Source: Eledone cirrhosa
Lineage: Eukaryota
NCBI GenBank assembly: GCA_964016885.1
Contig: OZ024740.1
Span: forward strand, 372,000,001 to 372,064,000
Length of the DNA: 64,000 nt
Reading direction: 5' to 3'
Each line of letters starts with the position of its first letter. Positions within the stretch are counted from its first letter, which is position 1. A program made the position numbers and the translations under genes. Below, one piece after another: positions 15,528-58,797 of this stretch. The notes beneath the pieces were generated by a model. It was given only the letters and a program-made list of their open reading frames with translations, searched no databases and was not told where the DNA came from.

Positions 15528-15627
<100 letters not shown>

Positions 15628-15809
15628 CATATATATACATATATATATATATACATATATACATATATATATATACATATATATACATATATATATATAC
15701 ATATATATATATACATATATATATATACATATATATATATACATATATATATATACATATGTATATATACATATATATATACATATATATATACATATAC
15801 ATATATACA

Positions 15810-15847
<38 letters not shown>

Positions 15848-15864
15848 TATATACATATATATAC

Positions 15865-15912
<48 letters not shown>

Positions 15913-15919
15913 GTACATA

Positions 15920-15969
<50 letters not shown>

Positions 15970-15994
15970 CATATATACATATATATATATATAT

Positions 15995-16546
15995 AATGAA
16001 GGTTTAGCAAATAAGAAAAAGTTTCAAAATAAAATTTAAAAAATTATCTTTACCTACTATAGTTACCTTTACCGAATCGGTTTCGAGTTTCAAAAATAAA
16101 CGACAACTGTTTCAAAGAAAGGCTCTCGTCAGAAGGATCTTTCCACTCGAAGAATATAAAATTCCCGAATTCAAATTACGAACTGGCGCTATTCAAAATT
16201 GTTCCCGAGATGAGAGTAAATGAAGTGGTATCAATTTTTTCAAGGGCCGTGTGTAAAGATAAGAGGCGGAGGCAGGGAGGTCAGTCGGCTACCGCTATAA
16301 CTAGCAGCAGTCAGAACGACCACATTTTTTTCTCAACCAAAAGGAGGTAATAATAATAGGGTATATGTTCCTACACACACAAGGCGCTAAGGGACACATG
16401 TATTGTCCAACCATATGTCAATGTGGTTCAATGGCAGGTTAATAAATTAAAGAGCCAGAACATATATAATGAAGGTTTAGCAAATAAGAAAAAGTTTCAA
16501 AATAAATTTTAAAAAATGAACTTTACCTACTATAGTTACCTTTACC

Positions 16547-16550
<4 letters not shown>
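15995..16550 (-). mobile_element. ORF-less 473-nt unit with ~83-bp terminal direct repeat and hammerhead (retrozyme/pLTR-like)
   Basis: 15995-16077 is repeated at 16468-16550 (offset 473). Embedded in (TA)n. Confidence 0.8.
16066..16136 (-). ncRNA. Type I hammerhead ribozyme, canonical core
   Basis: cctt-CTGACGA-gag...ctc-GAAA-ccga(t)tcgg-TA-aagg. GUA triplet. Confidence 0.88.
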
Positions 16551-17130
<580 letters not shown>

Positions 17131-23134: not shown

Positions 23135-24438
23135 CAGAGTGGGGCATAATTCCTGTTACAAAGTTTTAAATCAATTTAAAAATACATTATGTTGCTAATA
23201 TAACTAATATATTTGTATCAAATCCATGCACTATAACCATATTAACTATTTTTCAGAACATTACTCCATTAACAATTTGCAATGTCCATAGAATTGAAAA
23301 GAAAATTCATAATAGAGAAGCATGAAAAAGGCCTGACTCCACCCAAGATATTTAAATTGGGGAAAATTCTTAAGATCAATAGAATGTTGATCAAAAGGAC
23401 AATCGATCGATTTAAGGAAACTTCCTCGATCAAAGACAGACCTCGATCCAGACGCCCTCGCACCTCAAGAACACCAAAACTCGTTAAAAGTGTGAGGGAA
23501 AAAATAAGGCGTAATCCAAGAAGGTCCATGAGAAAAATGGCAGAAGAAGCAGAAACATCGCCGAGAACTATGCGGAGGATATGTCGAAATGATCTGGGGA
23601 TGTCACCCTATAAGTTCCAAAAGAGGGAGCTTCTTTCTGCAGCCACAATTGAAAAGAGGCTCTCCAGAAGTAAACTGTTATTGAACTGTATCAAGGATGG
23701 CACGCTGCAAAACATCATCTTTACAGATGAGAAGTTATTCACTGTGCAGCAGTTTCACAATCATCAAATTGATCGAGTACTTGCAAAAAGTCTCAAATCA
23801 ATTCCTTCAAGTGTAGGAAAAGTGTTCAGAACACAGAAACCAGCATCAGTGATGATTTGGGCAGCCATTTCTGAAAGAAGTAAGTCTCCTCTGATTTCTG
23901 TGCCTCAAGGAGTTAAAATTAACAAAGAACTTTACATAAAGTATATTTTGGAAGGAGCACTGATGCCATGGTCCATATCTGTTTATGGCGATGACATTTG
24001 GACTCTCCAACAAGATGGAGCGACGAGCTACACTGCTTGCATAACACAACAGTGGTGTAGAGACCATTGTCCTGCTTGGTTCAGTAAGGAAGAGTGGCCT
24101 CCCACATCACCAGATCTCAACCCTCTCGATTTTTCTTTATGGTCAATTCTTGAGAGTGAAACCTGCTCTACTCCTAGCCAAAATATTGAAACTCTAAAAT
24201 CAAAACTGAATAAAGTATGGGAGAAAATACCCATGGAAACTGTTCGTGCAGTCATCAAAGACTTTCCTAGAAGACTTCCAGCGGTGGTGAGAGTTAGAGG
24301 AAAGCATTTCGAATAAATTTTTGTGCAGTTGTTTAATAGTATATTACTTACTATTTGTTGAAGTCAGATCTTGAAATAAATGTTTTTTTCAAGAACTATT
24401 TTTATTTTATTTTGTAACAGTTTTTACGCCCCACCCTG
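23135..24438 (+). mobile_element. Full-length Tc1/mariner-superfamily DNA transposon, DD37D (maT-type), 1304 bp
   Basis: Imperfect ~28-bp TIRs CAGAGTGGGGCATAATTCCTGTTACAAA / CAGGGTGGGGCGTAAAAACTGTTACAAA (rc). TA on both sides. Confidence 0.93.
23282..24316 (+). CDS. DD37D transposase, 344 aa, uninterrupted
   Basis: N-terminal HTH region (DRPRSRRPRT, IRRNPRRSMRKMA). Catalytic IFTDEK, QQDGA, SPDLNPLDF with 37 residues between the second and third Asp. Confidence 0.93.
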   Translation: MSIELKRKFIIEKHEKGLTPPKIFKLGKILKINRMLIKRTIDRFKETSSIKDRPRSRRPRTSRTPKLVKSVREKIRRNPRRSMRKMAEEAETSPRTMRRICRNDLGMSPYKFQKRELLSAATIEKRLSRSKLLLNCIKDGTLQNIIFTDEKLFTVQQFHNHQIDRVLAKSLKSIPSSVGKVFRTQKPASVMIWAAISERSKSPLISVPQGVKINKELYIKYILEGALMPWSISVYGDDIWTLQQDGATSYTACITQQWCRDHCPAWFSKEEWPPTSPDLNPLDFSLWSILESETCSTPSQNIETLKSKLNKVWEKIPMETVRAVIKDFPRRLPAVVRVRGKHFE

Positions 24439-25416: not shown

Positions 25417-25624
<208 letters not shown>

Positions 25625-25825
25625 TTAGTTATACTATTTATGGTTATGTAAACACAAAACCTTAAGCAGTTGTAAGTATTTTACACACACCCTAAATAGT
25701 GGTAGGCAGTAATGTATTACTACCTTATTACCAGTAAGTTAAGTAGCTCAATGTAAAAACATCAGCTGATTTACAGAGCAGTTATATGAAATATAAGAAT
25801 CAAAGAACTATTCAAAACATTATTG

Positions 25826-25872
25826 TGCTTACAGCTGTTTCCTCCAAACCGAGGTTTGGATTCTTCGGAGCA
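25826..25872 (-). ncRNA. Minimal hammerhead, CCGAAGA core (3' pLTR of family A)
   Basis: tgct-CCGAAGA-atccaaacc(tc)ggtttggag-GAAA-cagctg-TA-agca. Confidence 0.8.
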
Positions 25873-27315
25873 ATTTATTAATGCATGGACAGTTATATGA
25901 CCTCCTTTTCAGCCGAGAGACATACCAATACATATTCAAACATTGATACATATTCAAACATTGTGGGTCAACATTCATTACAAAATTTAGAGTGGCAGTA
26001 CACACTTCGAGATTACATTTATATTAATAGGTACAATCAAAAATCAAAGATATAGGTTAAAGTACAACATGAAGATAAGTGGTTATATAGTGCAAATGTT
26101 ATATGTGTGGCACGCATGTGCGTCTTGTTTATATAGTGTGGCAGAGAGATATGTGTGGTAGAGGCACTTAGGTAGGTAAATAAGAGTGTTAGGTTGGTAG
26201 ATCTGGTGGCAAAGTCTTTATATGATTGATGTAGTCTGTGTGTGGAGAAATATTATAAGCATTAAAGATAGTGCAAGCATTAAAAGTGTTATAAGTATTG
26301 GAGATGCACAACGCAGGGATGTCAAGTAATTCATGTACTTCGGCATTTTCATGATCAAGGGAGTGTATATTTCGATTATATGCCTTTCATATAATCCACG
26401 ACAATCCAGTTAGAGATCGTAGTCTGGTGTTCTTTAGTTCGATACAGGAGGTTGTTACGTTTCGAGAGACGCCATTGAATACCGGAAGTGTGTGTGTGGC
26501 TAAGGGGAGTTAATGCATGCGGGGAGGTAACTCTGGGGTTTCTATATCTAGCCATTAAAATGTGTCCCAATATGGACCCTAAATTCTATGGTGAGGTGCA
26601 CCCTCCAAGAGAGACTTTTAAAGCATAAAGTGTACTAACTATAGAGTAGTTTAACTAAATTATGCTGAAGGTGATCATATTATTATTAAGGTGGATTAAC
26701 CCATCTTAAGGTGCTACAAATGGAAATTATAGATGATGAGCGAGGATTCTAAATTAATGATCTCTGTGGTTGTAGTCTGCTCATATGACCAGGCGCGGTG
26801 ATTGCAGGATTGCTTCAGGACCCAATGATCTCTGGTAAGATCTGGGTCATCGCTTGCTACATTGGATGTCGAAAGATAATCGTCCCCAGGCAGGCCAAAG
26901 GTCAATCCGCAGTCCTCGCGACCCCTCTCTGACCGTCAGATCATCCATATACGTACAACCCGCACGGCAGTTGCATTGCATTCACTCACTGCGCTCAGCA
27001 GCCCGGTCCTACTGGTCAACAGCGCTACTCGATTAAATCATTTTACATCTGTCTAAGGAAGGTGTTTCCTCTGCCCAACACCATCCAACCGATCAATTCA
27101 TGCTCAAATTACCCTTAGAGCGGTGTAGTGCCGTCCAGGTGGGTGGATGTTGTCACACCTGCCGTAGAGGTATAAATGGGTATTTTCCCTGCGAAGGGTT
27201 CCAGATGGATGTCGTTGTTTGTGTTATAATGGATCAGCTAGTGTTGGGTATGTAGTATAGGGTGTGTCTCTGGTGTTTGATGCTAGATGTGGTGTTAGGT
27301 TCCAGTCCGACATTG

Positions 27316-29775
27316 CTATATATAGGGCTTAAAGTTTTGGAAGGAATGTCTGAGGCGGTGTTGGCAAGTTGCAAACACCTCAGATTTTTTGTTAAGTAGG
27401 TTACGGTTGGAGAAGATAATATTGTGTGTCTCTAGTATACAGAGGTTACAGAATTTATTAGGTGGTTTGTACGAGGTCGCGCTGCCTATCACTTCCCATT
27501 TGAGTGTGTATGGTTTATTTTTAGATTTTAGATAGTGTATGTAGCTAGAAAGTGAGGTGGAGTTGGCTAGGCTGTGCTTTTTGAACGAGTGGATGTGCGA
27601 GTTATATCTAATTTTGAAGCAGTTAGAAGTGGAGCCTACATAGGTTTCTGAAGAGTTATTAGTCGTGACTGTGCATGAGTATATGACATCCTTGGTTAGG
27701 CATTTTTTATCTAAAGGGCAGGTTCTATTAGCTCTACAGTTACAATTATTCTGTGCGTTAGTCCGCTGGTTATAATGCAATGCGGAAGTCTGTGTGGTGG
27801 ATATAGGATTTTGGGTGTTCAGGTTGACAACCCTGGTGTTATTACTTATACTAGTGTTATTTCTATTGTTACTGCCGTTGCTATTGTTGCTTGCTACAGT
27901 GGTATTTAGAGGGTTTGCATCCCGTTGTGATTTTGTTTGTTGGAAGTAAGAACTAATTTTACTATTATTGCTGCTAGCTATGTGGTATGCTAAGTTAGGT
28001 GTCGTAGAGTATGAGATTTTAATGGTGTTTTTGTTTAAGAGGTTGTGGTACTTGTGTCCTAGAGGGAAGTTTTTATCTAGTAGTGAGAAGAAAGCCCTAG
28101 GTATGTTGGTGGAGACATTTAGGTTGAAAGGAGGGTTGAAAAATGTATTATTTCTTCTTCTATTTTTGCTTTTAGTGTTTGGTGTGTTGCTTCCTCCTAA
28201 GGCCTCACAGTAGTTTCCATGGTAATGGTTACTTCTGGTGGCACTCTCCGCTTTGGTGTACTTGTGGTTGCTATTCCTATTATTAGATTTCCTCATGGAC
28301 ATGTTGTGCGAGATGATGTTGTAGCTATGTGTTTTCTTAGGTAGGAACTCTATTTCTATATTATGGCCGGAGCTAGCTAATGCTTGATTGTAATATTGTG
28401 AGTTTTTGCTAAATATGTTTGCGTCATAGGACAGACTAGAGATTCTATTGGACACCCCCTTAGAGATAGAGTTTAATATTGATCTAGGGTGATTAGACTT
28501 GGTATCTACGTAAATAAGTTTCTCATTAGGCTTATGGAAAGGTGTATATATTTTTGAGTCTAGGTATAGTGTGGCGTCTAGGAAGTTAACATTTTTAGTG
28601 TTTTTGTCCATGGTGATACTAAGGTTAAAGTTTTTGAATGTCTTATGCAGTTGTTTTCTAGTTCTTTCTATATTAAATTTTTTATATTCTATGAGTAGAA
28701 GTGCATCATCGCGGTACAAACCACCGTTGAGGTAAGGGAGGTCTTTATGGATTTCATTGAGGAGGTATAGGCCGACCAAATCAGTGACCTGCGCCGAGTC
28801 ACTAGATCCCATGGTTATGTCGAAGTTGTTGTGCGTATCCTTGCGTGTCCATAGTTGGTCCTCGAAGGTGATTATGGTTTTACGGGCCGCAAGGATGACA
28901 TCAACCTGGGCTCTAGTCAGGTCGCTATTGGTCATGGCCATGATAAGTGCCTTATTTAATAGGATAGGGGAAATAGAGGTGTAGTATGAATTGATATCAA
29001 ATTGAATAAATTTTTTGTTCTTATTATTCTTGATATCCTTAAACCATTCAATTACTTCACCCGTATTTCCCCATTGTTTAAGGTGTATCTTGTGTTTAAT
29101 TTGTGGGATGATTTTATCCAAAATCTTCTTGCTGATAATACCAATGTCGGACTTGGAAGGGCAGATAAGTCTTATCGTGGGGTTGCTGATGAAGTTCTCC
29201 TTATGGTCCTTCAGAGAGAATCTAGGGGGGTTCGGAGTGAAAGGTTGTGTATGCCTCTGTAGTCCTAGTTTAGACACTATATTATAACCCTCTACATTAA
29301 TATCTTCTAAGTTTTTCAAGGTGGTTTTTTTGTAGCTTTTATGTAGTTCATTATATATAAACTTTCTATAAGTAATATAATCTAGGCTGTATATGTTATT
29401 AGTTTTATCTGCGTGTACAATAATTTTATTACTAGTTTTGAATCCACTAATAGAAGTGTTAAGTTTGTTTAAGAAGGTGTTGCTTCTAATATGGTGCTTA
29501 TTGTATTTAATGTTCTTAACTAGTTTAACTAGGTCATTTTCAAAGGAGTTAAGTAGAGTGTTATGAGGGGGGCTTTTAAAGGTTTTAAAGCCGAAGGAGT
29601 CAAAATTGTTAGTATTATTCAAGTTGTTAGATTTGTTTCTATCATAATGGAATGTCCTCCATCTCACTCTATTGATAAATGAATTTACACTGTTGATCAG
29701 CAATTTCTCATATGTATTCCTGGATGGTATTGGTATGTTCTTGGTTGACATGGGGAGTTGGTCTTTGATTAGCAT
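27316..29775 (-). CDS. PLE reverse transcriptase + GIY-YIG endonuclease, 819 aa
   Basis: ADKT; RT motifs QFDINSYYTSI, TMGSSDS, LYRDD, NFLDATL; SNHP thumb; CNCR-x4-CPL-x3-CL Cys linker; VIYSC..YVGST..FKIRYNSH; CNLCILE..LNKKSE..CQH. Architecture resembles the Hydra-type PLE group (inference). Confidence 0.95.
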   Translation of the reverse strand: MLIKDQLPMSTKNIPIPSRNTYEKLLINSVNSFINRVRWRTFHYDRNKSNNLNNTNNFDSFGFKTFKSPPHNTLLNSFENDLVKLVKNIKYNKHHIRSNTFLNKLNTSISGFKTSNKIIVHADKTNNIYSLDYITYRKFIYNELHKSYKKTTLKNLEDINVEGYNIVSKLGLQRHTQPFTPNPPRFSLKDHKENFISNPTIRLICPSKSDIGIISKKILDKIIPQIKHKIHLKQWGNTGEVIEWFKDIKNNKNKKFIQFDINSYYTSISPILLNKALIMAMTNSDLTRAQVDVILAARKTIITFEDQLWTRKDTHNNFDITMGSSDSAQVTDLVGLYLLNEIHKDLPYLNGGLYRDDALLLIEYKKFNIERTRKQLHKTFKNFNLSITMDKNTKNVNFLDATLYLDSKIYTPFHKPNEKLIYVDTKSNHPRSILNSISKGVSNRISSLSYDANIFSKNSQYYNQALASSGHNIEIEFLPKKTHSYNIISHNMSMRKSNNRNSNHKYTKAESATRSNHYHGNYCEALGGSNTPNTKSKNRRRNNTFFNPPFNLNVSTNIPRAFFSLLDKNFPLGHKYHNLLNKNTIKISYSTTPNLAYHIASSNNSKISSYFQQTKSQRDANPLNTTVASNNSNGSNNRNNTSISNNTRVVNLNTQNPISTTQTSALHYNQRTNAQNNCNCRANRTCPLDKKCLTKDVIYSCTVTTNNSSETYVGSTSNCFKIRYNSHIHSFKKHSLANSTSLSSYIHYLKSKNKPYTLKWEVIGSATSYKPPNKFCNLCILETHNIIFSNRNLLNKKSEVFATCQHRLRHSFQNFKPYI

Positions 29776-30024
29776 ATTGGCAATATTATATGTCAGCTCA
29801 ACGATATGGAGCAGTTAATAGTATTAGTTATACTATTTATGGTTATGTAAACACAAAACCTTAAGCAGTTGTAAGTATTTTACACACACCCTAAATAGTG
29901 GTAGGCAGTAATGTATTACTACCTTATTACCAGTAAGTTAATTAGCTCAATGTAAAAACATCAGCTGATTTACAGAGCAGTTATATGAAATATAAGAATC
30001 AAAGAACTGTTCAAAACATTATTG

Positions 30025-30071
30025 TGCTTACAGCTGTTTCCTCCAAACCGAGGTTTGGATTCTTCGGAGCA
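30025..30071 (-). ncRNA. Minimal hammerhead, CCGAAGA core (5' pLTR of family A)
   Basis: Identical to 25826-25872; ~250 nt upstream of the ORF ATG. Confidence 0.8.
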
Positions 30072-30622
30072 ATTTATTAATGCATGGACAGTTATATGAC
30101 CTGTGTGAAAGGCATATAATCGAAATATACACTCCCTTGATCATGAAAATGCCGAAGTACATGAATTACTTGACATCCCTGCGTTGTGCATCTCCAATAC
30201 TTATAACACTTTTAATGCTTGCACTATCTTTAATGCTTATAATATTTCTCCACACACAGACTACATCAATCATATAAAGACTTTGCCACCAGATCTACCA
30301 ACCTAACACTCTTATTTACCTACCTAAGTGCCTCTACCACACATATCTCTCTGCCACACTATATAAACAAGACGCACATGCGTGCCACACATATAACATT
30401 TGCACTATATAACCACTTATCTTCATGTTGTACTTTAACCTATATCTTTGATTTTTGATTGTACCTATTAATATAAATGTAATCTCGAAGTGTGTACTGC
30501 CACTCTAAATTTTGTAATGAATGTTGACCCACAATGTTTGAATATGTATCAATGTTTGAATATGTATTGGTATGTCTCTCGGCTGAAAAGGAGGTCATAT
30601 AACTGTCCATGCATTAATAAAT

Positions 30623-30669
30623 TGCTCCGAAGAATCCAAACCTCGGTTTGGAGGAAACAGCTGTAAGCA
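30623..30669 (+). ncRNA. Minimal hammerhead, CCGAAGA core (inverted pLTR of family A)
   Basis: Identical motif on the + strand. Confidence 0.8.
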
Positions 30670-30700
30670 CAATAATGTTTTGAACAGTTCTTTGATTCTT

Positions 30701-30740
<40 letters not shown>

Positions 30741-35820: not shown

Positions 35821-38800
35821 CATGGAAAGTTATATTTAAATTGTTGGGTTACAACTAGTAAATATTTATAACTGATATAAAAGCACTCGACAAGTATTTG
35901 GAGTATATTTACAATATTAAATAAATGGAAACTATATTTATAAAACCATATTTATTTCATTATATATATTTCAGGGATATCATATTAACAATATGCTATG
36001 CCTTCCTCAGACAAAATACAATATAAACAGTTTTATAGATAAATAGATTTGACATACCGTAACAACATCGACTTATATTTGAAAAGTTGAATTGGCAGTG
36101 AAAAGATTGTACACAGAGAGAAAGAAAGAGAGAAAAGGAAAGAAAGACAGAAAACGAAGAAAAAGAAGAAACAAAAGAAGAAATGCATGGAACAAAATAG
36201 AGAGATGGAAAGATAGATAAAGAGAAGAACTTCATGTAAAGAAACAGAGAGATATATATATATATATAGAGAGAGGAAATAGAGATAGATACATATATAT
36301 AGAAAACTAGGTAGTGGGACGTCCGTTGAGTAAACGTATCAATGATACATTTATTTATTTATTTATTTATTTAGCTCTAGTATTAATGTAAGGGAGATAT
36401 ATGTGGTTAGGAAAGAAACCAGCTGTTATATAGAGAGACAAATTAAAAATAACCAGACATAGGCGAGGCATAAAACCCTATGTTTTAATGTAGAGGTATT
36501 AGTATGTATAAAAACCAGCCACTATATTGTAAATATTAGTATTCCTGAATGAGACATGTATCCATAATGTGTGAAAAGTAATGATCTTATGTTTAGTTTT
36601 TTTTAAAAATTCATATGTTTATGTGATAAACATCTATGTGAATTTACATGATCAACTCTGTAAACCCTAAGTTCACGGAAACTCTAACCACCCCAGATCT
36701 GTCAAAAACACTATAGTAAACTCTGTTCAAAAACGTATCTCTAGGATCTCGTCGAATAGAAAGATTTTCGACGAAAAAGCCCAATACTACAATGAAGCAT
36801 TAGCTAGAGCAGGATATGCTGATAAGATTATGTACATAGATAATGATAGACAAACTAAACAAAATAACAACTATTTTAATTACGGCAACAACCTTAACAA
36901 CTATAATAGAAAGCATTACAATAATTCCAAAGGCCAAAAAAGAAATAGAACTAGGAACATAATTTGGTTTGCCCCCCCCCCCCCCCCCTTTCTCACTAAA
37001 CATTAAAACCCACATCGCTAAACTATTTTTTAAAGCTCTTGATAATCGCTTCCCTAGAACACATAGGTATCACTCAATTTTCAATAGACATACAATAAAA
37101 TTAACCTACTCATCCACCAAAAATTTAGCACAAAATATTAATAGAATAAATAATAGGAACTTAAAACCTAGTGATAATAGCATAAATAATATACAAGTTA
37201 ACAAATGTAACTGTAGAGATAGATCTAAATGTCCGTTAAATAACAACTGCTTAGTTAAAAATATAGTATACAATTGTAATGTTAAAACTGACTCTAATTC
37301 TTTTAACTACGTCGGTTCCACATCGACGGAATTTAAACTTCGCTATAATAACCACAAGAATTCTTTCACAGATCCAAGCAAAAAATCTTCAACGGCACTA
37401 TCAGGCGTACTCTGGCAACTTAAGCTAGATAACGTTAGATATTCGACGGCTTGGAATATAGTCTCAAGAGGGATTCCTTTTAATTCATCCTCTGAGACAT
37501 GTGACCTCTGCGCAGAGGAGATATTCTTTATACTAAAATCTAAAAATTCCCTTAATCTACGGACAAATTTATTCAGTTGCTGCAAACATAGATTAAACTC
37601 AACGTTTAAATATAAATTTAAATTTAAAATGTAGTATATTTAGTTTGATTTATAATTATATGGGAAACTAGCCGATAAATCTTTGATTTCTTCTTTTTAT
37701 TCTTTTTATTTTTATTTTTATTTTTATTTAAACATTCTTCACGAAAAATTAAGCTACCCTAAAAGTTGATGCTCCAAATATTTCGAATAAACGTTACACT
37801 AGATAAACTTCTATATTAAATATAAGAACACATGTAGACCAAATGGGCATCCTAAACTTTTTGAAATGATCTTTGCTAGATGCGATTTGATAAATAATTT
37901 TTGGCTTTATCTGTTTTTCGACTCTGATGCTTATAATGAACTTGGCAATATATTGTCAATTAATTTTGAAGGGTTGATCTTTGTGGTTTATTTTTATTAT
38001 TGTAGTATTTTCTAATATTTTTATTTTTAATATTTTTAATATGTAATATTTTTAATATGTAATATTTTTAATATGTAATATTCTTTCGTAATATTTTTTA
38101 GTTTTCTATTTTATTATTACTTATTATTATTATTATTGTTATTTTTTGGTTTTTGTTTCTGATATATGTTTTTATTAGTATATTGAAATCTGCTCTCTAT
38201 TTCTGCTTGATAGATAATCTTGTAGAGTAAAGACAGGAATAGTAGTAATATTGACTCTATATATATTTGTGTGTATATATATACACATATATGTATACTT
38301 AAATTTTTATAGCACAATGAAAATATTTTCCGTGAACTTAGGGTTTACAGAGTTGATCATGTAAATTCACATAGATGTTTATCACATAAACATATGAATT
38401 TAAAAAAAAAACTAAACATAAGATCATTACTTTTCACACATTATGGATACATGTCTCATTCAGGAATACTAATATTTACAATATAGTGGCTGGTTTTTAT
38501 ACATACTAATACCTCTACATTAAAACATAGGGTTTTATGCCTCGCCTATGTCTGGTTATTTTTAATTTTTCTCTCTATATAACAGCTGGTTTCTTTCCTA
38601 ACCACATATATCTCCCTTACATTAATACTAGAGCTAAATAAATAAATAAATAAATAAATAAATGTATCATTGATACGTTTACTCAACGGACGTCCCACTA
38701 CCTAGTTTTCTATATATATGTATCTATCTCTATTTCCTCTCTCTCTATATATATATATATCTCTCTCTGTTTCTTTACATGAAGTTCTTCTCTTTATCTA

Positions 38801-39099
38801 TCTTTCCATCTCTCTATTTTGTTCCATGCATTTCTTCTTTTTTTTCTTCTTTTTCTTCGTTTTCTGTCTTTCTTTCCTTTTCTCTCTTTCTTTCTCTCTG
38901 TGTACAATCTTTTCACTGCCAATTCAACTTTTCAAATACAAGTCGATGTTGTTACGGTATGTCAAATCTATTTATCTATAAAACTGTTTATATTGTATTT
39001 TGTCTGAGGAAGGCATAGCATATTGTTAATATGATATCCCTGAAATATATATAATGAAATAAATATGGTTTTATAAATATAGTTTCCATTTATTTAATA
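35821..39099 (+). mobile_element. 5'-truncated PLE (family C) with ~770-bp inverted arms
   Basis: 35915-36681 is inverted at 38327-39099. Central ORF remnant. Confidence 0.9.
36671..37634 (+). pseudogene. PLE thumb + GIY-YIG remnant, frameshift at poly-C (~36973-36988)
   Basis: VHGNSNHP..YYNEALARAGY..; CNCRDRSKCPLNNNCL, IVYNC..YVGST..FKLRYNNH, CDLCAEE. Confidence 0.9.
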
Positions 39100-39177: not shown

Positions 39178-39237
39178 TTTCATTTACCAGTGGTTTCTTA
39201 AAAGCAAAAGGTTTTGCTTTCAATCCTCAGAATGAAA
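39178..39237 (-). ncRNA. Type I hammerhead, canonical CUGAGGA (family D outer, left arm)
   Basis: Reverse complement of 43812-43871. Confidence 0.85.
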
Positions 39238-40309: not shown

Positions 40310-40486
40310 ATATTAAATAAATGGAAACTATATTTATAAAACCATATTTATTTCATTATATATATTTCAGGGATATCATATTAAAAATATGTCATGCCTT
40401 CTTCAGACAAAATACAATATAAACAGTCTTATAAATAGATAGATTCGACATACCTTTCAACTTCGACTTCTATTTGAAAAGTTGAT

Positions 40487-43811: not shown

Positions 43812-43871
43812 TTTCATTCTGAGGATTGAAAGCAAAACCTTTTGCTTTTAAGAAACCACTGGTAAATGAAA
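43812..43871 (+). ncRNA. Type I hammerhead, canonical CUGAGGA (family D outer, right arm)
   Basis: tttcatt-CTGAGGA-ttgaaagcaaaa(cc)ttttgcttttaa-GAAA-cca(c)tgg-TA-aatgaaa. Confidence 0.88.
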
Positions 43872-49999: not shown

Positions 50000-51718
50000 G
50001 GCTTTGCAGCACAAACAGAAACAAAGGCTACAATAGTAGCCGTGATAAGAAAACTATTGAAAGAAAGAAGAAGGAATATGTAGAATGAAAATTTAGAAAA
50101 CCAAATAAAAAAAAATAAAAAAAAATAAAAAAAAATAAAACAAAATATAACAACAGGCAGTTTGGCAGTAAAAGAATAAGGAAATAAGTTACAATAAAAC
50201 AGACTCTGCTATAAACGTCTCGAACGGAAGTAAGAGGCAATATTGATATTAGCTGAGCGCAAAGGGAGATCAATACGATGTGTATTGGACGAATGCCAGT
50301 TGTTGTTTTCAGCATGCAAGCTTGTAATGGAATGTGAATAAATTAATCTTCAACCAGACACAGCACCTTAGCTCTCTTAAATTCAAACCACATGCAAATG
50401 AACGTGCAAGCACGCTTATACACGAAGCTTCGTCAACACATACACTTACACAAATATACAGACATAACGGAGAAACACCCAGATATACTCAAACAGATAT
50501 GCATAATATTGATATACGTGAATCTCAAACACGCACATCATTCACCCACGTACAAAGGTTGAATGATATATAATGTGATAAATCACGCCAAGCATCTATA
50601 CACCTATACGTTCGGCTTCTATCTATTCCTACAAGATAAACAAATACACATACATACGTAGAACACATACATACGTAGACACACATAAATACACACATAA
50701 ACTAACACACAAATTCACACACGTATCTATATGTGTGTATGTATGTATGTATGTATGTATGTATGTATGTATGTATGTATGTATGTATGTATGTATGTAT
50801 GTATGTATGTATGTATGTATGTATGCATGTATGTATGTATGTTACTATGTATGCATGTGTTTGTGTATATATGTAGGTGTGGAAAGTTAAAGAGACTGAG
50901 TTCCAAACGGTGTTTAATATACGCAATGTATATTTTCAGCCTTCAAATTGCTTTGCAAATGTACTAATCCTGGGATTACAGCCTTTCAGAAGTATGCTTG
51001 AAAACCCGTGGGATGTTAACTCTACAACCGGACCCCTCGCGATGTAGACCTGTAAAAATTAATACTTACTGAACTGTATAAAGAAACTGTATTAAACTGT
51101 CGCAACGCCGAATAGATGAAGCGAAATTTGTGATATATATGAGACGAATTATCAATTCATATATATGTTTTCTTTTGTATGTGGGTGAAATGTGGTGTGA
51201 TTTTCGTATGTATTATCTTGAGGGTGCGTACATGTGCTTTTGTATGCATCATATATGTATGTATGGCGCGCATGCGCATTTCGTTTGCTTCGCTTTTAAT
51301 AATCATTAGCATAACTGCTCTATTTTCTTTTGAAAGAGCTGACTCAGGAAGTTAATATGATTACCGATTTCTGACTTAAGCACAAGGCCATACGATTAAC
51401 TGGTACTTTATTCTATCAAAGTTGTAATATAATTATTGAAACTTAATAACCTTATTTGGCTGCAAACTCGCTTTGTTTACGATTAAATTGATTGTTTCGT
51501 ACTTATATGAAATAAAGCTATAACAAAATTATTAGAATTCATTTAATGTTTTCAGTGTCGGAGGGTAGGTCTAGTGTATGATTTTGTAGCAGCTATAACA
51601 CTATTTAAACTGTTTTTCAAAGACTAGGTTTTCTGCATAGGACCAGAAACTATTTCAGTTCTGGCCCTTTGCAGTTCATCAATTCATGAGCGTAGAGTAT
51701 TACTTGCATATACGGGAA

Positions 51719-54700
51719 AGCCTGATCTAGAACGATTCATGCTCCTCTGAACTACCACGTTGTATAAACTCGCGTTATAGTTATAGCCTGATCTAGAACG
51801 ATTCACGCTCCTCTGAACTCCACGTTGTATAAACTCGCGTTATAGTTATAGCCTGATCTAGAACGATTCACGCTCCTCTGAACTACCACGTAGTATAAAC
51901 TCGCGTTATAGTTATAGCCTGATCTAGAACGATTCACGCTCCTCTGAACTCCACGTTGTATAAACTCGCGTTATAGATATAGCCTGATCTAGAACGATTC
52001 ACGCTCCTCTGAACTCCACGTTGTATAAACTCGCGTTATAGCTATAGTTTGATCTAGAACGATTCACGCTCCTCTGAACTCCACGTTGTATAAACTCGCG
52101 TTATAGTTATAATTTGATCTAGAACGATTCATGCTCTTCTGAACTACCACGTTATATAAACTCGCGTTATAGCTATAGTTTGATCTAGAACGATTCATGC
52201 TCCTCTGAACTACCACGTTGTATAAACTCGCGTTATAGTTATAATTTGATCTAGAACGATTCATGCTCCTCTGAACTACCACGTTGTATAAACTCGCGTT
52301 ATAGTTATAATTTGATCTAGAACGATTCATGCTCCTCTGAACTACCACGTTATATAAACTCGCGTTATAGTTATAATTTGATCTAGAATGATTCATGCTC
52401 CTCTGAACTACCACGTTGTATAAACTCGCGTTATAGTTATAATTTGATCTAGAACGATTCATGCTCCTCTGAACTACCACGTTGTATAAACTCGCGTTAT
52501 AGTTATAGTTTGATCTAGAATGATTCATGCTCCTCTGAACTACCACGCTGTATAAACTCGCGTTATAGTTATAATTTGATCTAGAACGATTCATGCTCCT
52601 CTGAACTACCACGTTGTATAAACTCGCGTTATAGTTATAATTTGATCTAGAACGATTCATGCTCCTCTGAACTACCACGTTGTATAAACTCGCGTTATAG
52701 TTATAGTTTGATCTAGAATGATTCATGCTCCTCTGAACTACCACGCTGTATAAACTCGCGTTATAGTTATAATTTGATCTAGAACGATTCATGCTCCTCT
52801 GAACTACCACGCTGTATAAACTCGCGTTATAGTTATAATTTATAATTTGATCTAGAATGATTCATGCTCCTCTGAACTACCACGTTGTATAAACTCGCGT
52901 TATGGTTATAGTTTGATCTAGAATGATTCATGCTCCTCTGAACTACCACGCTGTATAAACTCGCGTTATAGTTATAATTTGATCTAGAATGATTCATGCT
53001 CCTCTGAACTACCACGTTATATAAACTCGCGTTATAGTTATAATTTGATCTAGAATGATTCATGCTCCTCTGAACTACCACGTTGTATAAACTCGCGTTA
53101 TAGTTATAATTTATAATTTGATCTAGAATGATTCATGCTCCTCTGAACTACCACGTTGTATAAACTCGCGTTATAGTTATAATTTGATCTAGAATGATTC
53201 ATGCTCCTCTGAACTACCACGTTATATAAACTCGCGTTATAGTTATAATTTGATCTAGAATGATGCATGCTTCCCTGAACTACCACGCTGTATAAACTCG
53301 CGTTATACTTATAATTTATAATTTGATCTAGAATGATTCATGCTCCTCTGAACTACCACGTTGTATAAACTCGCGTTATAGTTATAATTTGATCTAGAAT
53401 GATTCATGCTCCTCTGAACTACCACGTTATATAAACTCGCGTTATAGTTATAATTTGTTCTAGAATGATTCATGCTCCTCTGAACTACCACGTTATATAA
53501 ACTCGCGTTATAGTTATAATTTGATCTAGAATGATTCATGCTCCTCTGAACTACCACGTTATATAAACTCGCGTTATAGTTATAATTTGATCTACAATGA
53601 TTCATGCTCCTCTGAACTACCACGCTGTATAAACTCGCGTTATAGTTATAATTTATAATTTGATCTAGAATGATTCATGCTCCTCTGAAATACCACGCTG
53701 TATAAACTCGCGTTATAGTTATAATTTATAATTTGATCTAGAATGATTCATGCTCCTCTGAACTACCACGTTGTATAAACTCGCGTTATAGTTATAATTT
53801 GATCTAGAATGATTCATGCTCCTCTGAACTACCACGTTATATAAACTCGCGTTATAGTTATAATTTGATCTAGAATGATTCATGCTCCTCTGAACTACCA
53901 CGTTATATAAACTCGCGTTATAGTTATAATTTGATCTAGAATGATTCATGCTCCTCTGAACTACCACGTTATATAAACTCGCGTTATAGTTATAATTTGA
54001 TCTAGAATGATTCATGCTCCTCTGAACTACCACGCTGTATAAACTCGCGTTATAGTTATAATTTATAATTTGATCTAGAATGATTCATGCTCCTCTGAAC
54101 TACCACGCTGTATAAACTCGCGTTATAGTTATAATTTATAATTTGATCTAGAATGATTCATGCTCCTCTGAACTACCACGTTGTATAAACTCGCGTTATA
54201 GATATAGCCTGATCTAGAACGATTCACGCTCATCTGAACTCCACGTTGTATAAACTCGCGTTATAGCTATAGTTTGATCTAGAACGATTCACGCTCCTCT
54301 GAACTCCACGTTGTATAAACTCGCGTTATAGCTATAGTTAGATCTAGAACGATTCATGCTCCTCTGAACTACCACGTTGTATAAACTCGCGTTATAGTTA
54401 TAATTTGATCTAGAACGATTCATGCTCCTCTGAACTACCACGTTGTATAAACTCGCGTTATAGTTATAATTTGATCTAGAACGATTCATGCTCCTCTGAA
54501 CTACCACGTTATATAAACTCGCGTTATAGTTATAATTTGATCTAGAATGATTCATGCTCCTCTGAACTACCACGCTGTATAAACTCGCGTTATAGTTATA
54601 ATTTATAATTTGATCTAGAATGATTCATGCTCCTCTGAACTACCACGTTGTATAAACTCGCGTTATAATTATAATTTGATCTAGAACGATTCATGCTCCT

Positions 54701-57306
54701 CTGAACTACCACGTTATATAAACTCGCGTTATAGCTATAGTTAGATCTAGAACGATTCATGCTCCTCTGAACTACCACGTTGTATAAACTCGCGTTATAG
54801 TTATAATTTGATCTAGAACGATTCATGCTCCTCTGAACTACCACGTTGTATAAACTCGCGTTATAGTTATAATTTGATCTAGAACGATTCATGCTCCTCT
54901 GAACTACCACGTTATATAAACTCGCGTTATAGTTATAATTTGATCTAGAATGATTCATGCTCCTCTGAACTACCACGCTGTATAAACTCGCGTTATAGTT
55001 ATAATTTATAATTTGATCTAGAATGATTCATGCTCCTCTGAACTACCACGTTGTATAAACTCGCGTTATAATTATAATTTGATCTAGAACGATTCATGCT
55101 CCTCTGAACTACCACGTTGTATAAACTCGCGTTATAGTTATAGTTTGATCTAGAATGATTCATGCTCCTCTGAACTACCACGCTGTATAAACTCGCGTTA
55201 TAGTTATAATTTGATCTAGAATGATTCATGCTCCTCTGAACTACCACGCTGTATAAACTCGCGTTATAGTTATAATTTATAATTTGATCTAGAATGATTC
55301 ATGCTCCTCTGAACTACCACGCTGTATAAACTCGCGTTATAGTTATAATTTATAATTTGATCTAGAATGATTCATGCTCCTCTGAACTACCACGTTGTAT
55401 AAACTCGCGTTATAGATATAGCCTGATCTAGAACAATTCACGCTCCTCTGAACTCCACGTTGTATAAACTCGCGTTATAGCTATAGTTTGATCTAGAACG
55501 ATTCACGCTCCTCTGAACTCCACGTTGTATAAACTCGCGTTATAGTTATAATTTGATCTAGAAAGATTCATGCTCCTCTGAACTACCACGTTATATAAAC
55601 TCGCGTTATAGCTATAGTTTGATCTACAACGATTCATGCTCCTCTGAACTACCACGTTGTATAAACTCGCGTTATAGTTATAATTTGATCTAGAACGATT
55701 CATGTTCCTCTGAACTACCACGTTGTATAAACTCGCGTTATAGTTATAATTTGATCTAGAACGATTCATGCTCCTCTGAACTACCACGTTATATAAACTC
55801 GCGTTATAGTTATAATTTGATCTAGAATGATTCATGCTCCTCTGAACTACCACGCTGTATAAACTCGCGTTATAGTTATAATTTATAATTTGATCTAGAA
55901 TGATTCATGCTCCTCTGAACTACCACGTTGTATAAACTCGCGTTATAGTTATAATTTGATCTAGAACGATTCATGCTCCTCTGAACTACCACGTTGTATA
56001 AACTCGCGTTATAGTTATAGTTTGATCTAGAATGATTCATGCTCCTCTGAACTACCACGCTGTATAAACTCGCGTTATAGTTATAATTTGATCTAGAATG
56101 ATTCATGCTCCTCTGAACTACCACGTTATATAAACTCGCGTTATAGTTATAATTTGATCTAGAATGATTCATGCTCCTCTGAACTACCACGCTGTATAAA
56201 CTCGCGTTATAGTTATAATTTATAATTTGATCTAGAATGATTCATGCTCCTCTGAACTACCACGTTGTATAAACTCGCGTTATAGTTATAATTTGATCTA
56301 GAATGATTCATGCTCCTCTGAACTACCACGTTATATAAACTCGCGTTATAGTTATAATTTCATCTAGAATGATTCATGCTCCTCTGAACTACCACGCTGT
56401 ATAAACTCGCGTTATAGTTATAATTTATAATTTGATCTAGAATGATTCATGCTCCTCTGAACTACCACGCTGTATAAACTCGCGTTATAGTTATAATTTA
56501 TAATTTGATCTAGAATGATTCATGCTCCTCTGAACTACCACGTTGTATAAACTCGCGTTATAGTTATAATTTGATCTAGAATGATTCATGCTCCTCTGAA
56601 CTACCACGTTATATAAACTCGCGTTATAGTTATAATTTGATCTAGAATGATTCATGCTCCTCTGAACTACCACGTTATATAAACTCGCGTTATAGTTATA
56701 ATTTGATCTAGAATGATTCATGCTCCTCTGAACTACCACGTTATATAAACTCGCGTTATAGTTATAATTTGATCTAGAATGATTCATGCTCCTCTGAACT
56801 ACCACGCTGTATAAACTCGCGTTATAGTTATAATTTATAATTTGATCTAGAATGATTCATGCTCCTCTGAACTACCACGCTGTATAAACTCGCGTTATAG
56901 TTATAATTTATAATTTGATCTAGAATGATTCATGCTCCTCTGAACTACCACGTTGTATAAACTCGCGTTATAGTTATAATTTGATCTAGAATGATTCATG
57001 CTCCTCTGAACTACCACGTTGTATAAACTCGCGTTATAGTTATAATTTGATCTAGAATGATTCATGCTCCTCTGAACTACCACGTTGTATAAACTCGCGT
57101 TATAGTTATAATTTGATCTAGAATGATTCATGCTCCTCTGAACTACCACGTTGTATAAACTCGCGTTATAGTTATAATTTGATCTAGAACGATTCATGCT
57201 CCTCTGAACTACCACGTTGTATAAACTCGCGTTATAGTTATAGTTTGATCTAGAATGATTCATGCTCCTCTGAACTACCACGTTGTATAAACTCTCGTTA
57301 TAGTTA
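51719..57306. repeat. Satellite array, 66-bp unit (65- and 73-bp variants), ~80-85 copies
   Basis: Unit tgatctagaa(t/c)gattcatgctcctctgaactaccacg(t/c)t(g/a)tataaactcgcgttatagttataatt, highly homogeneous. Confidence 0.98.
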
Positions 57307-58797
57307 ACCCAATACGAACTTACCCCCCTCTCTTTCCTTCTCTCCCCCTCTCTCTCCATCTCTCTCGCTCATCATCCATTTTGTGCCCCACTTCCAAATT
57401 AAATGTTTCCTCCACATTATGTTTCAGGTTATTGTAACCATCTCGTCTCATAACAGCACCTTCCTAAGAGGAATTAAATTATTGATGTTTGTGGTGAACA
57501 CAACGCAATCTATCAGTTCTGGAAGAAGGTCGAGAAGAATGTTTAGCTACAGAATCTTCATCTCCGCCTATAATCCCGTTTTCGATTTATAATACAAGCT
57601 AATACCTTAGTCTGATAAATTCGTAGTAGTTAATTGTAATGGCCATAATTTGAAATAATCGATTAGGGTAGCCATTATTGTTACTAATCAATTGGGCCAT
57701 GATTTGTCAACTGAGGTAGCCGAATGAAATGATGTCTAAGGTAAACTGAATTTAGAATACCATATTGCATGTTACATGATATTTGAACGTAAATCATATA
57801 ATCCATCACTTCTTAAAATGTAATCGGCTCAATTTTTATATAAGTGAAAAACGTTGATCACGGTTGCAGCTCCTTGCAGAAGATGGAAATGAATATAAAA
57901 GTAAGAAGTAAAGAAATAAAACAGCAACACAACAACAAAACCAAAGCAAATTAAACAACAGCAGCAAAAATAAAATCATTAACTTAAACAAAGGACAAAA
58001 ATATATTTACAGAATGAAATATAATGCAATCAAGAGTTTGCTAATTAATTGTGACTAAATTCAATTAAACATTTTGGCAGTAAGTCACGACAACAATGTT
58101 ACGTTGTTGTCATTCTTTTACAGATATCCATTTATATGTCAGGGCGGCCTTCAAATATAAACAAAACGAATTTTTAGTTATTTTATTACCGATTATATAG
58201 TTTGCTTTCGTTTTATTTTTGTTTCGTATGTGATTTCGAATGCCAAAGAATGTGGTCGGAAATAAATATTTTTATTTTATTTTTCAACACAGGTGATAAT
58301 TGCCTAATAATCACACCATATATCATGCATTCGTCATTAGCTATGGGAGGTGGGGAAAATAGTTGAAAATTGCATGATCCGATGACATTTTTCAAAGCAC
58401 GCAGCGTCTATCGGAGATACTTAATGAAAAGGTCTTGCCATACATGCAAATAAGAGATATTATTTGCTTGAAGAAATAATAATATATAAAAGAGAAAGAA
58501 AAAGTATACACAGACACGAAATACAAAAGAATTAGTCTTCACTGTTGATTGGTGCTTAATGGAAACAATATAAATATTTAAAATATAACATAAATAGTAT
58601 GAAATATCACTTTGTAGATTTGCTTAACTGCAATTTTGTTACAAAACCTAAAGTTTCGTTTTGTAGTATAGAGATCGAATTGATCATATGTAAGATACAT
58701 ATGACAGTCATCAATATTATAGTTAGTTAGGTATATCTCTATTTGATTATGAGTATAATGTGTGAGTACGTGTGTGTGTATCTATCTATCTCTTTTT

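What the first reader, a model, noticed from the sequence alone, without database searches (positions are those of the whole stretch)
15995..16550. Cleanest retrozyme-like element: 473-nt cleavage-site-to-cleavage-site unit
Seen: on the minus strand the element starts 8 nt before a predicted cleavage site (attcggTA^aagg, ~16543), runs 473 nt to a complete canonical HHR (CUGACGA, GUA^ at ~16070) and continues ~75 nt. No ORF. Inference: the template was a circular or multimeric 473-nt RNA copied about 1.2 times by a PLE RT.
Basis: partly seen in the sequence, partly recalled or inferred. Interest (0 to 1): 0.75.

Follow-up and report, generated by a model that had tools for sequence, protein, structure and literature searches.

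The report
Penelope-copied hammerhead retrozyme, one decayed copy
This is one damaged copy of a protein-free repeat with a hammerhead (predicted self-cutting RNA) motif that occurs hundreds of times in this animal genome and was likely pasted into TA microsatellites by the enzyme of a Penelope-type jumping gene; such 'retrozymes' are known from other animals, and whether this RNA cuts itself or forms circles is untested.

Summary
The anatomy is confirmed: predicted cleavage sites at 16543 and 16070 (473 nt apart), an 81-nt terminal repeat, a complete type I hammerhead, (TA)n on both sides and no ORF. It is not the 'cleanest' copy. A deletion found once in the genome shortens a family unit of about 481-487 nt, and stem II is broken. 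The family has at least 696 exact ribozyme matches, real stem covariation, and no copy joined to a Penelope ORF end in 110 loci. Copies end at two fixed sites, about 75-81 (A) and 181-193 (B) nt after the cut, fused to (TA)n. Back-to-back insertions pair A with B in 35 of 36 classifiable cases, and both arms usually share one template lineage. A bulged hairpin just after site A is shared with an intact Hydra-clade Penelope element in this window, the likely class of mobiliser. Most arms pass the cut site without added bases, which fits a circle but also an uncut or strand-transferred linear RNA. No RNA run was listed. Verdict: a new family of a known kind (non-LTR retrozyme). The scan already reported this two-arm pattern for other families in this genome.

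The parts
15995..16550 (-). Whole insertion: 8 nt + one 473-nt unit + 75-nt tail, single arm ending at site A
   Evidence: L001: 5' at unit position 476, 3' at 81
16070..16542 (-). Cut-to-cut monomer, 473 nt here, 471-489 nt (mostly 481-486) in 33 family monomers
16066..16136 (-). Type I hammerhead: stem I 16136-16133 with 16069-16066, core 16132-16126, stem II 16125-16123 with 16087-16085, GAAA 16084-16081, stem III 16081-16071, predicted cut after 16070
   Evidence: sequence; family covariation
16103..16104 (-). Site of the private deletion of about 11 nt in the loop-II hairpin; two stem II pairs nearby are also broken in this copy
16543..16550 (-). Remnant of the upstream hammerhead (3' half of stem III and first predicted cut); not a complete ribozyme
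15995..16069 (-). Tail (unit positions 1-75) ending at start site A; positions 68-71 (CCUU) are predicted to pair with the AAGG after the cut and so compete with stem I
16426..16461 (-). Bulged hairpin (GUUC...UU GAAC) directly after site A, shared in form with the Hydra-type PLE at 27316-29814 and four other hammerhead families; candidate RT recognition signal
16350..16362 (-). Start site B (unit positions 181-193), used by the second arm in other copies, not used as an end here
16551..16584 (.). Upstream (TA)n target
15531..15994 (.). Downstream (TA)n-rich target
27316..29814 (-). Not part of the element: intact 832-aa RT + GIY-YIG ORF with Hydra-clade motifs, an example of the likely class of mobiliser

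Best explanation
This is one decayed copy of a high-copy, protein-free hammerhead repeat (unit about 484 nt) that was likely inserted into (TA)n by the reverse transcriptase and endonuclease of a Hydra-clade Penelope-like element acting in trans. Shown: copy number, fixed 3' ends A and B, ragged or inverted 5' ends, the A+B pairing of arms, shared variants between repeats, and the hairpin shared with a Hydra PLE. Inferred: the PLE protein binds the hairpin after site A, nicks the TA run, and primes cDNA inside the RNA. One nicked strand primes at A; when the second strand also primes it does so at B, usually on the same RNA, giving back-to-back arms. The RT runs through the cut junction and stops at random after about 300 nt on average. 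Inferred with less support: the RNA is a monomer released by the hammerheads and ligated into a circle, in which a decoy helix keeps the ribozyme off. This copy is a single A-primed arm of 1.17 turns, and the hairpin deletion may have arisen during copying.
For: 696 and 778 exact pattern matches, controls 0. Of 113 arms in 71 position-ordered loci, 62 end at unit positions 70-99 and 40 at 170-209. 134 of 149 A/B ends and 61 of 76 free 5' ends abut (TA)3. Head-to-head arms: 32 A+B, 0 A+A or B+B, 6 with an unclassifiable end, of 38; a second set added 3 A+B, 1 A+A, 1 unclassifiable. At subfamily-polymorphic sites tandem repeats differ at 44 of 828 (391 expected for random copies) and opposite arms at 38 of 578 (274 expected). 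12 near-private variants are carried by all repeats of an insertion, against under 1 by my arithmetic on that call's rates. No insertion at any of 66 junctions outside the junction-selected loci. 18 of 21 arms that reach a second junction pass it. The hammerhead has two pairs with many-sequence double changes (G-C to U-A in stem II, U-A to C-G in the loop-II hairpin), with 97.5% of cells paired. Three family monomers fold better than shuffles as circles, z -2.6 to -4.9. The hairpin is found in this family, the window's PLE and 4 of 8 other families, always just after the short end, in at most 1.6% of shuffles. Hydra motifs DKT and CxCX5C are present, and Hydra elements target (TA)n (PMC8557442).
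Against: No autonomous element with sequence homology to the unit was found, so the partner is assigned by class only; the window's PLE is much younger (108 scored matches at 99-100% identity) than this family (median 1.9% from majority). The hairpin descriptor was written after looking at these sequences, and 4 of 10 families lack it. Arms are short (maximum 1149 nt, 2.4 units), not the long runs that would force a circle. The active hammerhead fold has near-zero predicted probability in all 30 monomers folded as circles, costing 2-14.5 kcal/mol, 14 for this copy. In vitro a PLE used uncut RNA and did not need its hammerhead (PMC11167929), and only 1 of 9 Xenopus retrozyme dimers cleaved (10.64898/2026.07.22.740005). 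There is a slight excess of stops at the second junction, 3 against 0.87 expected, p 0.058. One A+A insertion (L150) and one pair of arms with discordant subfamily sites (L033, 6 of 15) break the rules. No A-to-G editing bias marks an RNA stage (4.06 against 4.5 per 1000 for T-to-C). Stem I and III invariance is partly built in by the selection pattern.
Confidence: 0.72

Rival explanations
1. Same family and same PLE mobiliser, but the template is linear: an uncut read-through transcript of a partial-tandem locus, or a terminally redundant RNA that the RT re-copies by homologous strand transfer. The hammerhead would only trim ends or be mostly off.
For: Arms never exceed 2.4 units; predicted block of stem I by the tail; mild excess of stops at the junction; uncut RNA was the dominant substrate for the anole PLE in vitro (PMC11167929). 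Homologous transfer would also leave seamless junctions.
Against: Pure read-through can only shorten copies over generations and does not explain variants carried by both repeats without a re-copying step or gene conversion. Hammerhead stems were kept through compensatory changes. Related animal retrozymes accumulate as circles (PMC7229834).
Confidence: 0.35
2. The copies are 5'-truncated pseudo-LTR ends of an autonomous PLE whose ORF-bearing copies were not sampled or have been lost; no independent non-coding element exists.
For: Tail, inverted arms and TA targets are PLE hallmarks (PMC8557442); retrozymes are proposed to derive from pLTRs (10.64898/2026.07.22.740005).
Against: Arms longer than one unit continue into the same unit, never into an ORF. 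In 110 loci, 12 have a same-strand PLE fragment upstream, 11 of them 820-3289 nt away and one (L070) an N-terminal piece. The unit has no credible match to five PLE protein fragments (best E 0.016 over 17 aa, reverse strand). Limits: five queries only, and flanks of 1.5 kb for L001-L030.
Confidence: 0.1
3. The partial tandems arose at DNA level (unequal crossover, slippage, gene conversion) from dispersed monomers.
For: Conversion could homogenise neighbouring repeats; DNA-level tandem growth is proposed for some retrozyme arrays.
Against: Fixed 3' ends, ragged 5' ends fused straight to (TA)n, and A+B inverted arms are not products of crossover.
Confidence: 0.04

Closest known systems
Metazoan non-LTR retrozymes (Cervera and de la Pena 2020, PMC7229834; passages, part 2 of 6 and sections 14 and 17 read)
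   Same: Non-coding repeat, one type I hammerhead per unit, GC under 45% (37% here), no LTR features, thousands-scale copy number, co-existing with PLEs that the paper proposes as mobilisers.
   Different: Unit about 484 nt against 170-400 nt; hammerhead with a 4-bp stem III and about 50-nt loop II; dispersed 1-2.4-unit copies rather than long arrays; ribozyme predicted blocked in the circle, whereas the paper predicts most animal circles leave it free; no RNA evidence here.
Retrozymes as non-autonomous PLE derivatives (Li, Clavereau and Pollet 2026, bioRxiv 10.64898/2026.07.22.740005; parts 1-3 of 5 read, supplements closed)
   Same: PLE link; unit length inside their 51-972 bp range; many near-monomer copies.
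   Different: Their link is pLTR homology in Xenopus; here it is insertion geometry and a shared hairpin, with no homologous pLTR found. This copy would not count as 'active' by their rule of two complete hammerheads.
Hydra-clade Penelope-like elements (Craig et al. 2021, PMC8557442; passages read)
   Same: (TA)n targets, hammerhead in the terminal repeat, partial tandems, inverted 5' arm, tail at one end only. The window's own Hydra-type element ends 43 and 208 nt after its predicted cut.
   Different: No ORF; the tail between the two ends is about 110 nt against the 30-40 bp described.
PAc (Poseidon) internal RT initiation (Frangieh et al. 2024, PMC11167929; parts 1-2 of 4 read)
   Same: Two internal start sites downstream of the hammerhead that define the genomic tail; both DNA strands nicked and extended.
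   Different: They saw no difference in start site between strands and no homology to the target; here the two arms almost always use different sites, and both sites are UA-rich like the target.

Membership tests
Metazoan non-LTR retrozyme | Type I hammerhead with intact core in each unit | tested here: met
   stem II weakened in this copy
Metazoan non-LTR retrozyme | Head-to-tail repeats of a unit of a few hundred bases | tested here: met
   22 of 113 arms cross two or more junctions, maximum 2.4 units; no long arrays seen in the loci fetched
Metazoan non-LTR retrozyme | Non-coding, not attached to an RT ORF | tested here: met
   (110 loci, five query proteins)
Metazoan non-LTR retrozyme | Dispersed, multi-copy, low GC | tested here: met
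Metazoan non-LTR retrozyme | Self-cleavage of the transcript | not testable with these tools
   only folding predictions, which disfavour the active fold
Metazoan non-LTR retrozyme | Accumulates as linear and circular monomer RNA | not testable with these tools
   needs RNA data; genomic signs fit a circle but do not prove it
Metazoan non-LTR retrozyme | Canonical helix sizes and loop I-loop II contact | tested here: not met
   stem I 4-5 bp, loop II about 50 nt, Rfam RF00163 13 bits against 34; mussel retrozymes also lack the usual contact residues, so this is not decisive
Autonomous Penelope-like element | RT + GIY-YIG ORF between pLTRs | tested here: not met
PLE-mobilised insertion | Fixed internal 3' ends with a tail at one end, 5' truncation, inverted arm | tested here: met
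PLE-mobilised insertion | Sequence homology to the pLTR of an autonomous family | tested here: inconclusive
   no match to PLE ends in the window or among hammerhead clusters in the fetched loci; only a structural hairpin is shared; no genome-wide pLTR census
PLE-mobilised insertion | Target-site duplication | not testable with these tools
   targets are (TA)n runs

The most novel reading that the evidence does not exclude
A Hydra-clade Penelope dimer engages one circular retrozyme RNA at a hairpin signal and primes the two strands of a TA break at two different fixed sites, A and B, with both RTs running round the same circle; the helix that blocks the ribozyme and start site A sit side by side, so the RNA switches between a 'cut' fold and a 'copy me' fold.
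Probability: 0.3. Interest if true: 0.7.

Novelty: new member of a known kind. Interest (0 to 1): 0.4.

Why it matters
How PLEs make their tandem and inverted ends, and whether retrozyme circles are the real templates, are open questions that the papers read here propose answers to but do not show. This family supplies a 484-nt substrate, two mapped start sites, a candidate recognition hairpin and an intact enzyme class in the same genome, so an in vitro test can be specified directly. The copy itself is ordinary and damaged, and families with much longer arms reported earlier by this scan would test the circle better.

Tried and rejected
RNA evidence: no RNA holder listed. The two runs of unknown kind were laid; their contigs show many variant copies of the family and nothing on expression. 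Rfam: no hammerhead hit at gathering score; the microRNA hits are TA-repeat noise. Unconstrained folding of the window's hammerhead gives no signal, z -0.01. A-to-I editing scars, a lead from e1-8803865: none in this family. Pile-up of 5' ends at the cut: by my hand count of the first 100 rows, TA-abutting ends are about as dense just upstream (32 loci on contigs 1-3) as just downstream (35 loci, list cut within contig 3), and the peak at the cut is matched by a TA-microhomology peak at +10, so there is no hard stop. Intron idea (GTRAGT at unit position 13): no spliced copy seen, and the A/G change also fits pairing in the tail helix; dropped. Covariation in unit positions 1-200: only 1 of 44 predicted pairs has a double change, so the decoy helix and hairpin rest on folding and cross-family likeness, not on covariation. 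Search for a homologous autonomous partner: protein search returned only the young window family; a relaxed hammerhead pattern returned 24 matches, 22 of them by eye family copies with shortened loop II. Pfam did not name the full PLE ORF (GIY-YIG E 0.021 below cut-off), PDB gave nothing, and the Atlas gave no result. The bacterial promoter scan is not informative for an animal. No earlier scan note matched this sequence or place.

Full report
1. Observation. On the minus strand the motif TCGGTA^AAGG occurs twice, with the predicted cleavage-site A at 16543 and 16070, 473 nt apart; the two repeats match at 78 of 81 positions. The element begins at 16550, straight after a (TA)n run, and ends at 15995, 75 nt after the second site, where it merges into another TA run. 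Upstream of 16070 lies a complete type I hammerhead. No real frame of 120 aa lies in the unit. Rfam does not call the ribozyme (13 bits) because loop II is long.

2. It belongs to a large family, and this copy is damaged. The genome (3.0 Gb, probably a cephalopod; inferred from its size, its TA-rich sequence and earlier scan notes) holds 696 exact matches to a 22-mer across the cut and 778 to a hammerhead pattern, with 0 for reversed controls. The DNA search saw about 2,500 candidates and scored 40; the best other copy is 92% identical. Thirty-three intact monomers measure 471-489 nt, mostly 481-486. The window copy lacks about 11 nt of the loop-II hairpin, a junction that occurs once in the genome. 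Its stem II keeps three of the first five family pairs, it folds less well than three relatives (z -1.7 against -2.6, -4.3, -4.9), and its active fold costs 14 kcal/mol against about 5 for a typical copy. So neither 'cleanest' nor '473' describes the family.

3. The hammerhead was maintained in the master lineages. On 54 of 107 extracted hammerheads (every second one; 52 distinct), 97.5% of cells pair. Two pairs change on both sides in many sequences: stem II G-C to U-A, and the loop-II hairpin U-A to C-G. These are a few inherited events, and stems I and III were partly fixed by my selection patterns.

4. Insertion geometry. I mapped every arm in 110 loci onto a tandem ruler. In the 71 loci taken in chromosome order, 62 of 113 arms end at unit positions 70-99 (site A, about 75-81) and 40 at 170-209 (site B, about 181-193); 11 end elsewhere. 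134 of 149 A or B ends and 61 of 76 free 5' ends abut TA repeats. 5' ends are spread over the whole unit. Of 38 head-to-head junctions, 32 join an A arm to a B arm, none joins like to like, and 6 have an unclassifiable end. In 28 further loci there were 3 A+B, 1 A+A (L150) and 1 unclassifiable. Single-arm insertions are mostly A (30 A, 5 B), like the window copy. I found this rule before consulting the scan's notes, which report it for 310-, 422- and 591-nt families of the same genome. Those notes are unchecked and are not independent support.

5. One template, copied more than once. At subfamily-polymorphic sites, tandem repeats within an arm differ at 44 of 828 positions where random copies would differ at 391, and opposite arms differ at 38 of 578 against 274. 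L033 is an exception (6 of 15). Twelve variants seen in at most two loci are carried by all repeats of their insertion, beside 296 unshared ones over 13,391 sites (three duplicated loci dropped); by my arithmetic chance gives under 1. Gene conversion could contribute. No junction carries added bases, including 66 outside the junction-selected loci, two of which lose bases just after the cut. Of 21 arms that reach a second junction, 18 pass and 3 stop there (0.87 expected, p 0.058); the mean run is about 300 nt and the longest arm 1149 nt. The junction is therefore usually continuous in the template. A circle explains this simply. An uncut multimer with occasional re-copying, or homologous strand transfer on a terminally redundant linear RNA, explains it too. 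There is no A-to-G editing bias.

6. No ORF, but a likely class of partner. No arm continues into a PLE ORF end: 12 of 110 loci have a same-strand PLE fragment upstream, 11 at 820-3289 nt and one an N-terminal piece 13 nt away. The window holds an intact 832-aa ORF with YRDD, DKT, RWR, a CxCX5C linker, a GIY-YIG-like end and CxxC and CxH motifs, which match the diagnostics given for the Hydra clade, whose members insert into (TA)n (PMC8557442). Its two arms end 43 and 208 nt after its own predicted cut, the same short-and-long design. Following a lead from e1-8805697, I tested for a shared signal. A hairpin RYUC...2-nt bulge...GARY starts 1-8 nt after the short end in this family, in that PLE and in 4 of 8 other hammerhead families, and appears in at most 1.6% of shuffles. 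The descriptor was written after seeing the sequences. That PLE family is far younger than this repeat, so it shows the class, not the actual partner.

7. Predicted folding. In 30 monomers folded as circles the active stem I has probability near 0. In linear constructs with an 80-nt tail, the AAGG after the cut mostly pairs with CCUU at positions 68-71, directly before site A. This could keep a template uncut, but it is a prediction without tertiary contacts and without covariation.

8. Mechanism. Shown: anatomy, copy number, two fixed ends, TA targets, A+B pairing, shared variants, shared hairpin. Inferred: trans-mobilisation by a Hydra PLE with internal priming (likely, about 0.85), and both strands of the break primed on one RNA (about 0.65). 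Inferred with weaker support: hammerhead release and ligation to a circle as template (about 0.5). Promoter unknown.

9. Relation to known systems. The element works like, and meets the sequence-level tests for, a metazoan non-LTR retrozyme (PMC7229834). Cleavage and circles, which define that family experimentally, could not be tested. The PLE origin of such repeats is argued in bioRxiv 10.64898/2026.07.22.740005. Tails at one end and inverted arms are described for PLEs (PMC8557442), and two internal RT start sites were shown for an anole PLE (PMC11167929). PLE hammerheads with short helix I and long helix II are described in PMC4209133 (part 1 of 4 read). Four searches listed no paper whose title or abstract concerns octopus retrozymes or states the A+B arm rule; subscription journals and supplements were not covered.

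10. Verdict. Real, a new family of a known kind, and a damaged single-arm copy of it. Interest 0.4: the family makes a proposed but unshown copying route testable, but this locus adds little, and the circle is not demonstrated.

Noticed in passing
window 25620-30710: Intact Hydra-type PLE (832-aa ORF, minus strand) with partial tandem and inverted 5' arm; the 108 genomic matches scored were 99-100% identical and most had open frames, so the family is very young. Its hammerhead-like core reads CCGAAGA rather than CUGANGA.
   Followed up: partly
window 16585-16676 and 16860-16955 (minus): Two copies of the tail of another hammerhead family (the L060 type) lie just upstream; the finding's element sits in the TA run at the end of one of them.
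   Followed up: partly
window 35961-36010, 39004-39053, 39185-39230, 40357-40406, 43819-43864: Five further hammerheads of two other families, some in inverted pairs, near PLE ORF fragments.
   Followed up: partly
G000: About 22 family copies each carry a different deletion in the loop-II hairpin, suggesting that the RT skips this hairpin.
   Followed up: no
window 51600-57400: Tandem array of a 66/73-bp unit.
   Followed up: no
window 23273-24316: 347-aa open frame that looks like a Tc1/mariner transposase (label from recall, no family search run).
   Followed up: no
L087 and L088; L076: Near-identical repeated insertions (two loci 11 kb apart, and a doubled segment within L076), probably local duplications; left out of the variant counts and wholly or partly out of the arm-length test.
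   Followed up: partly
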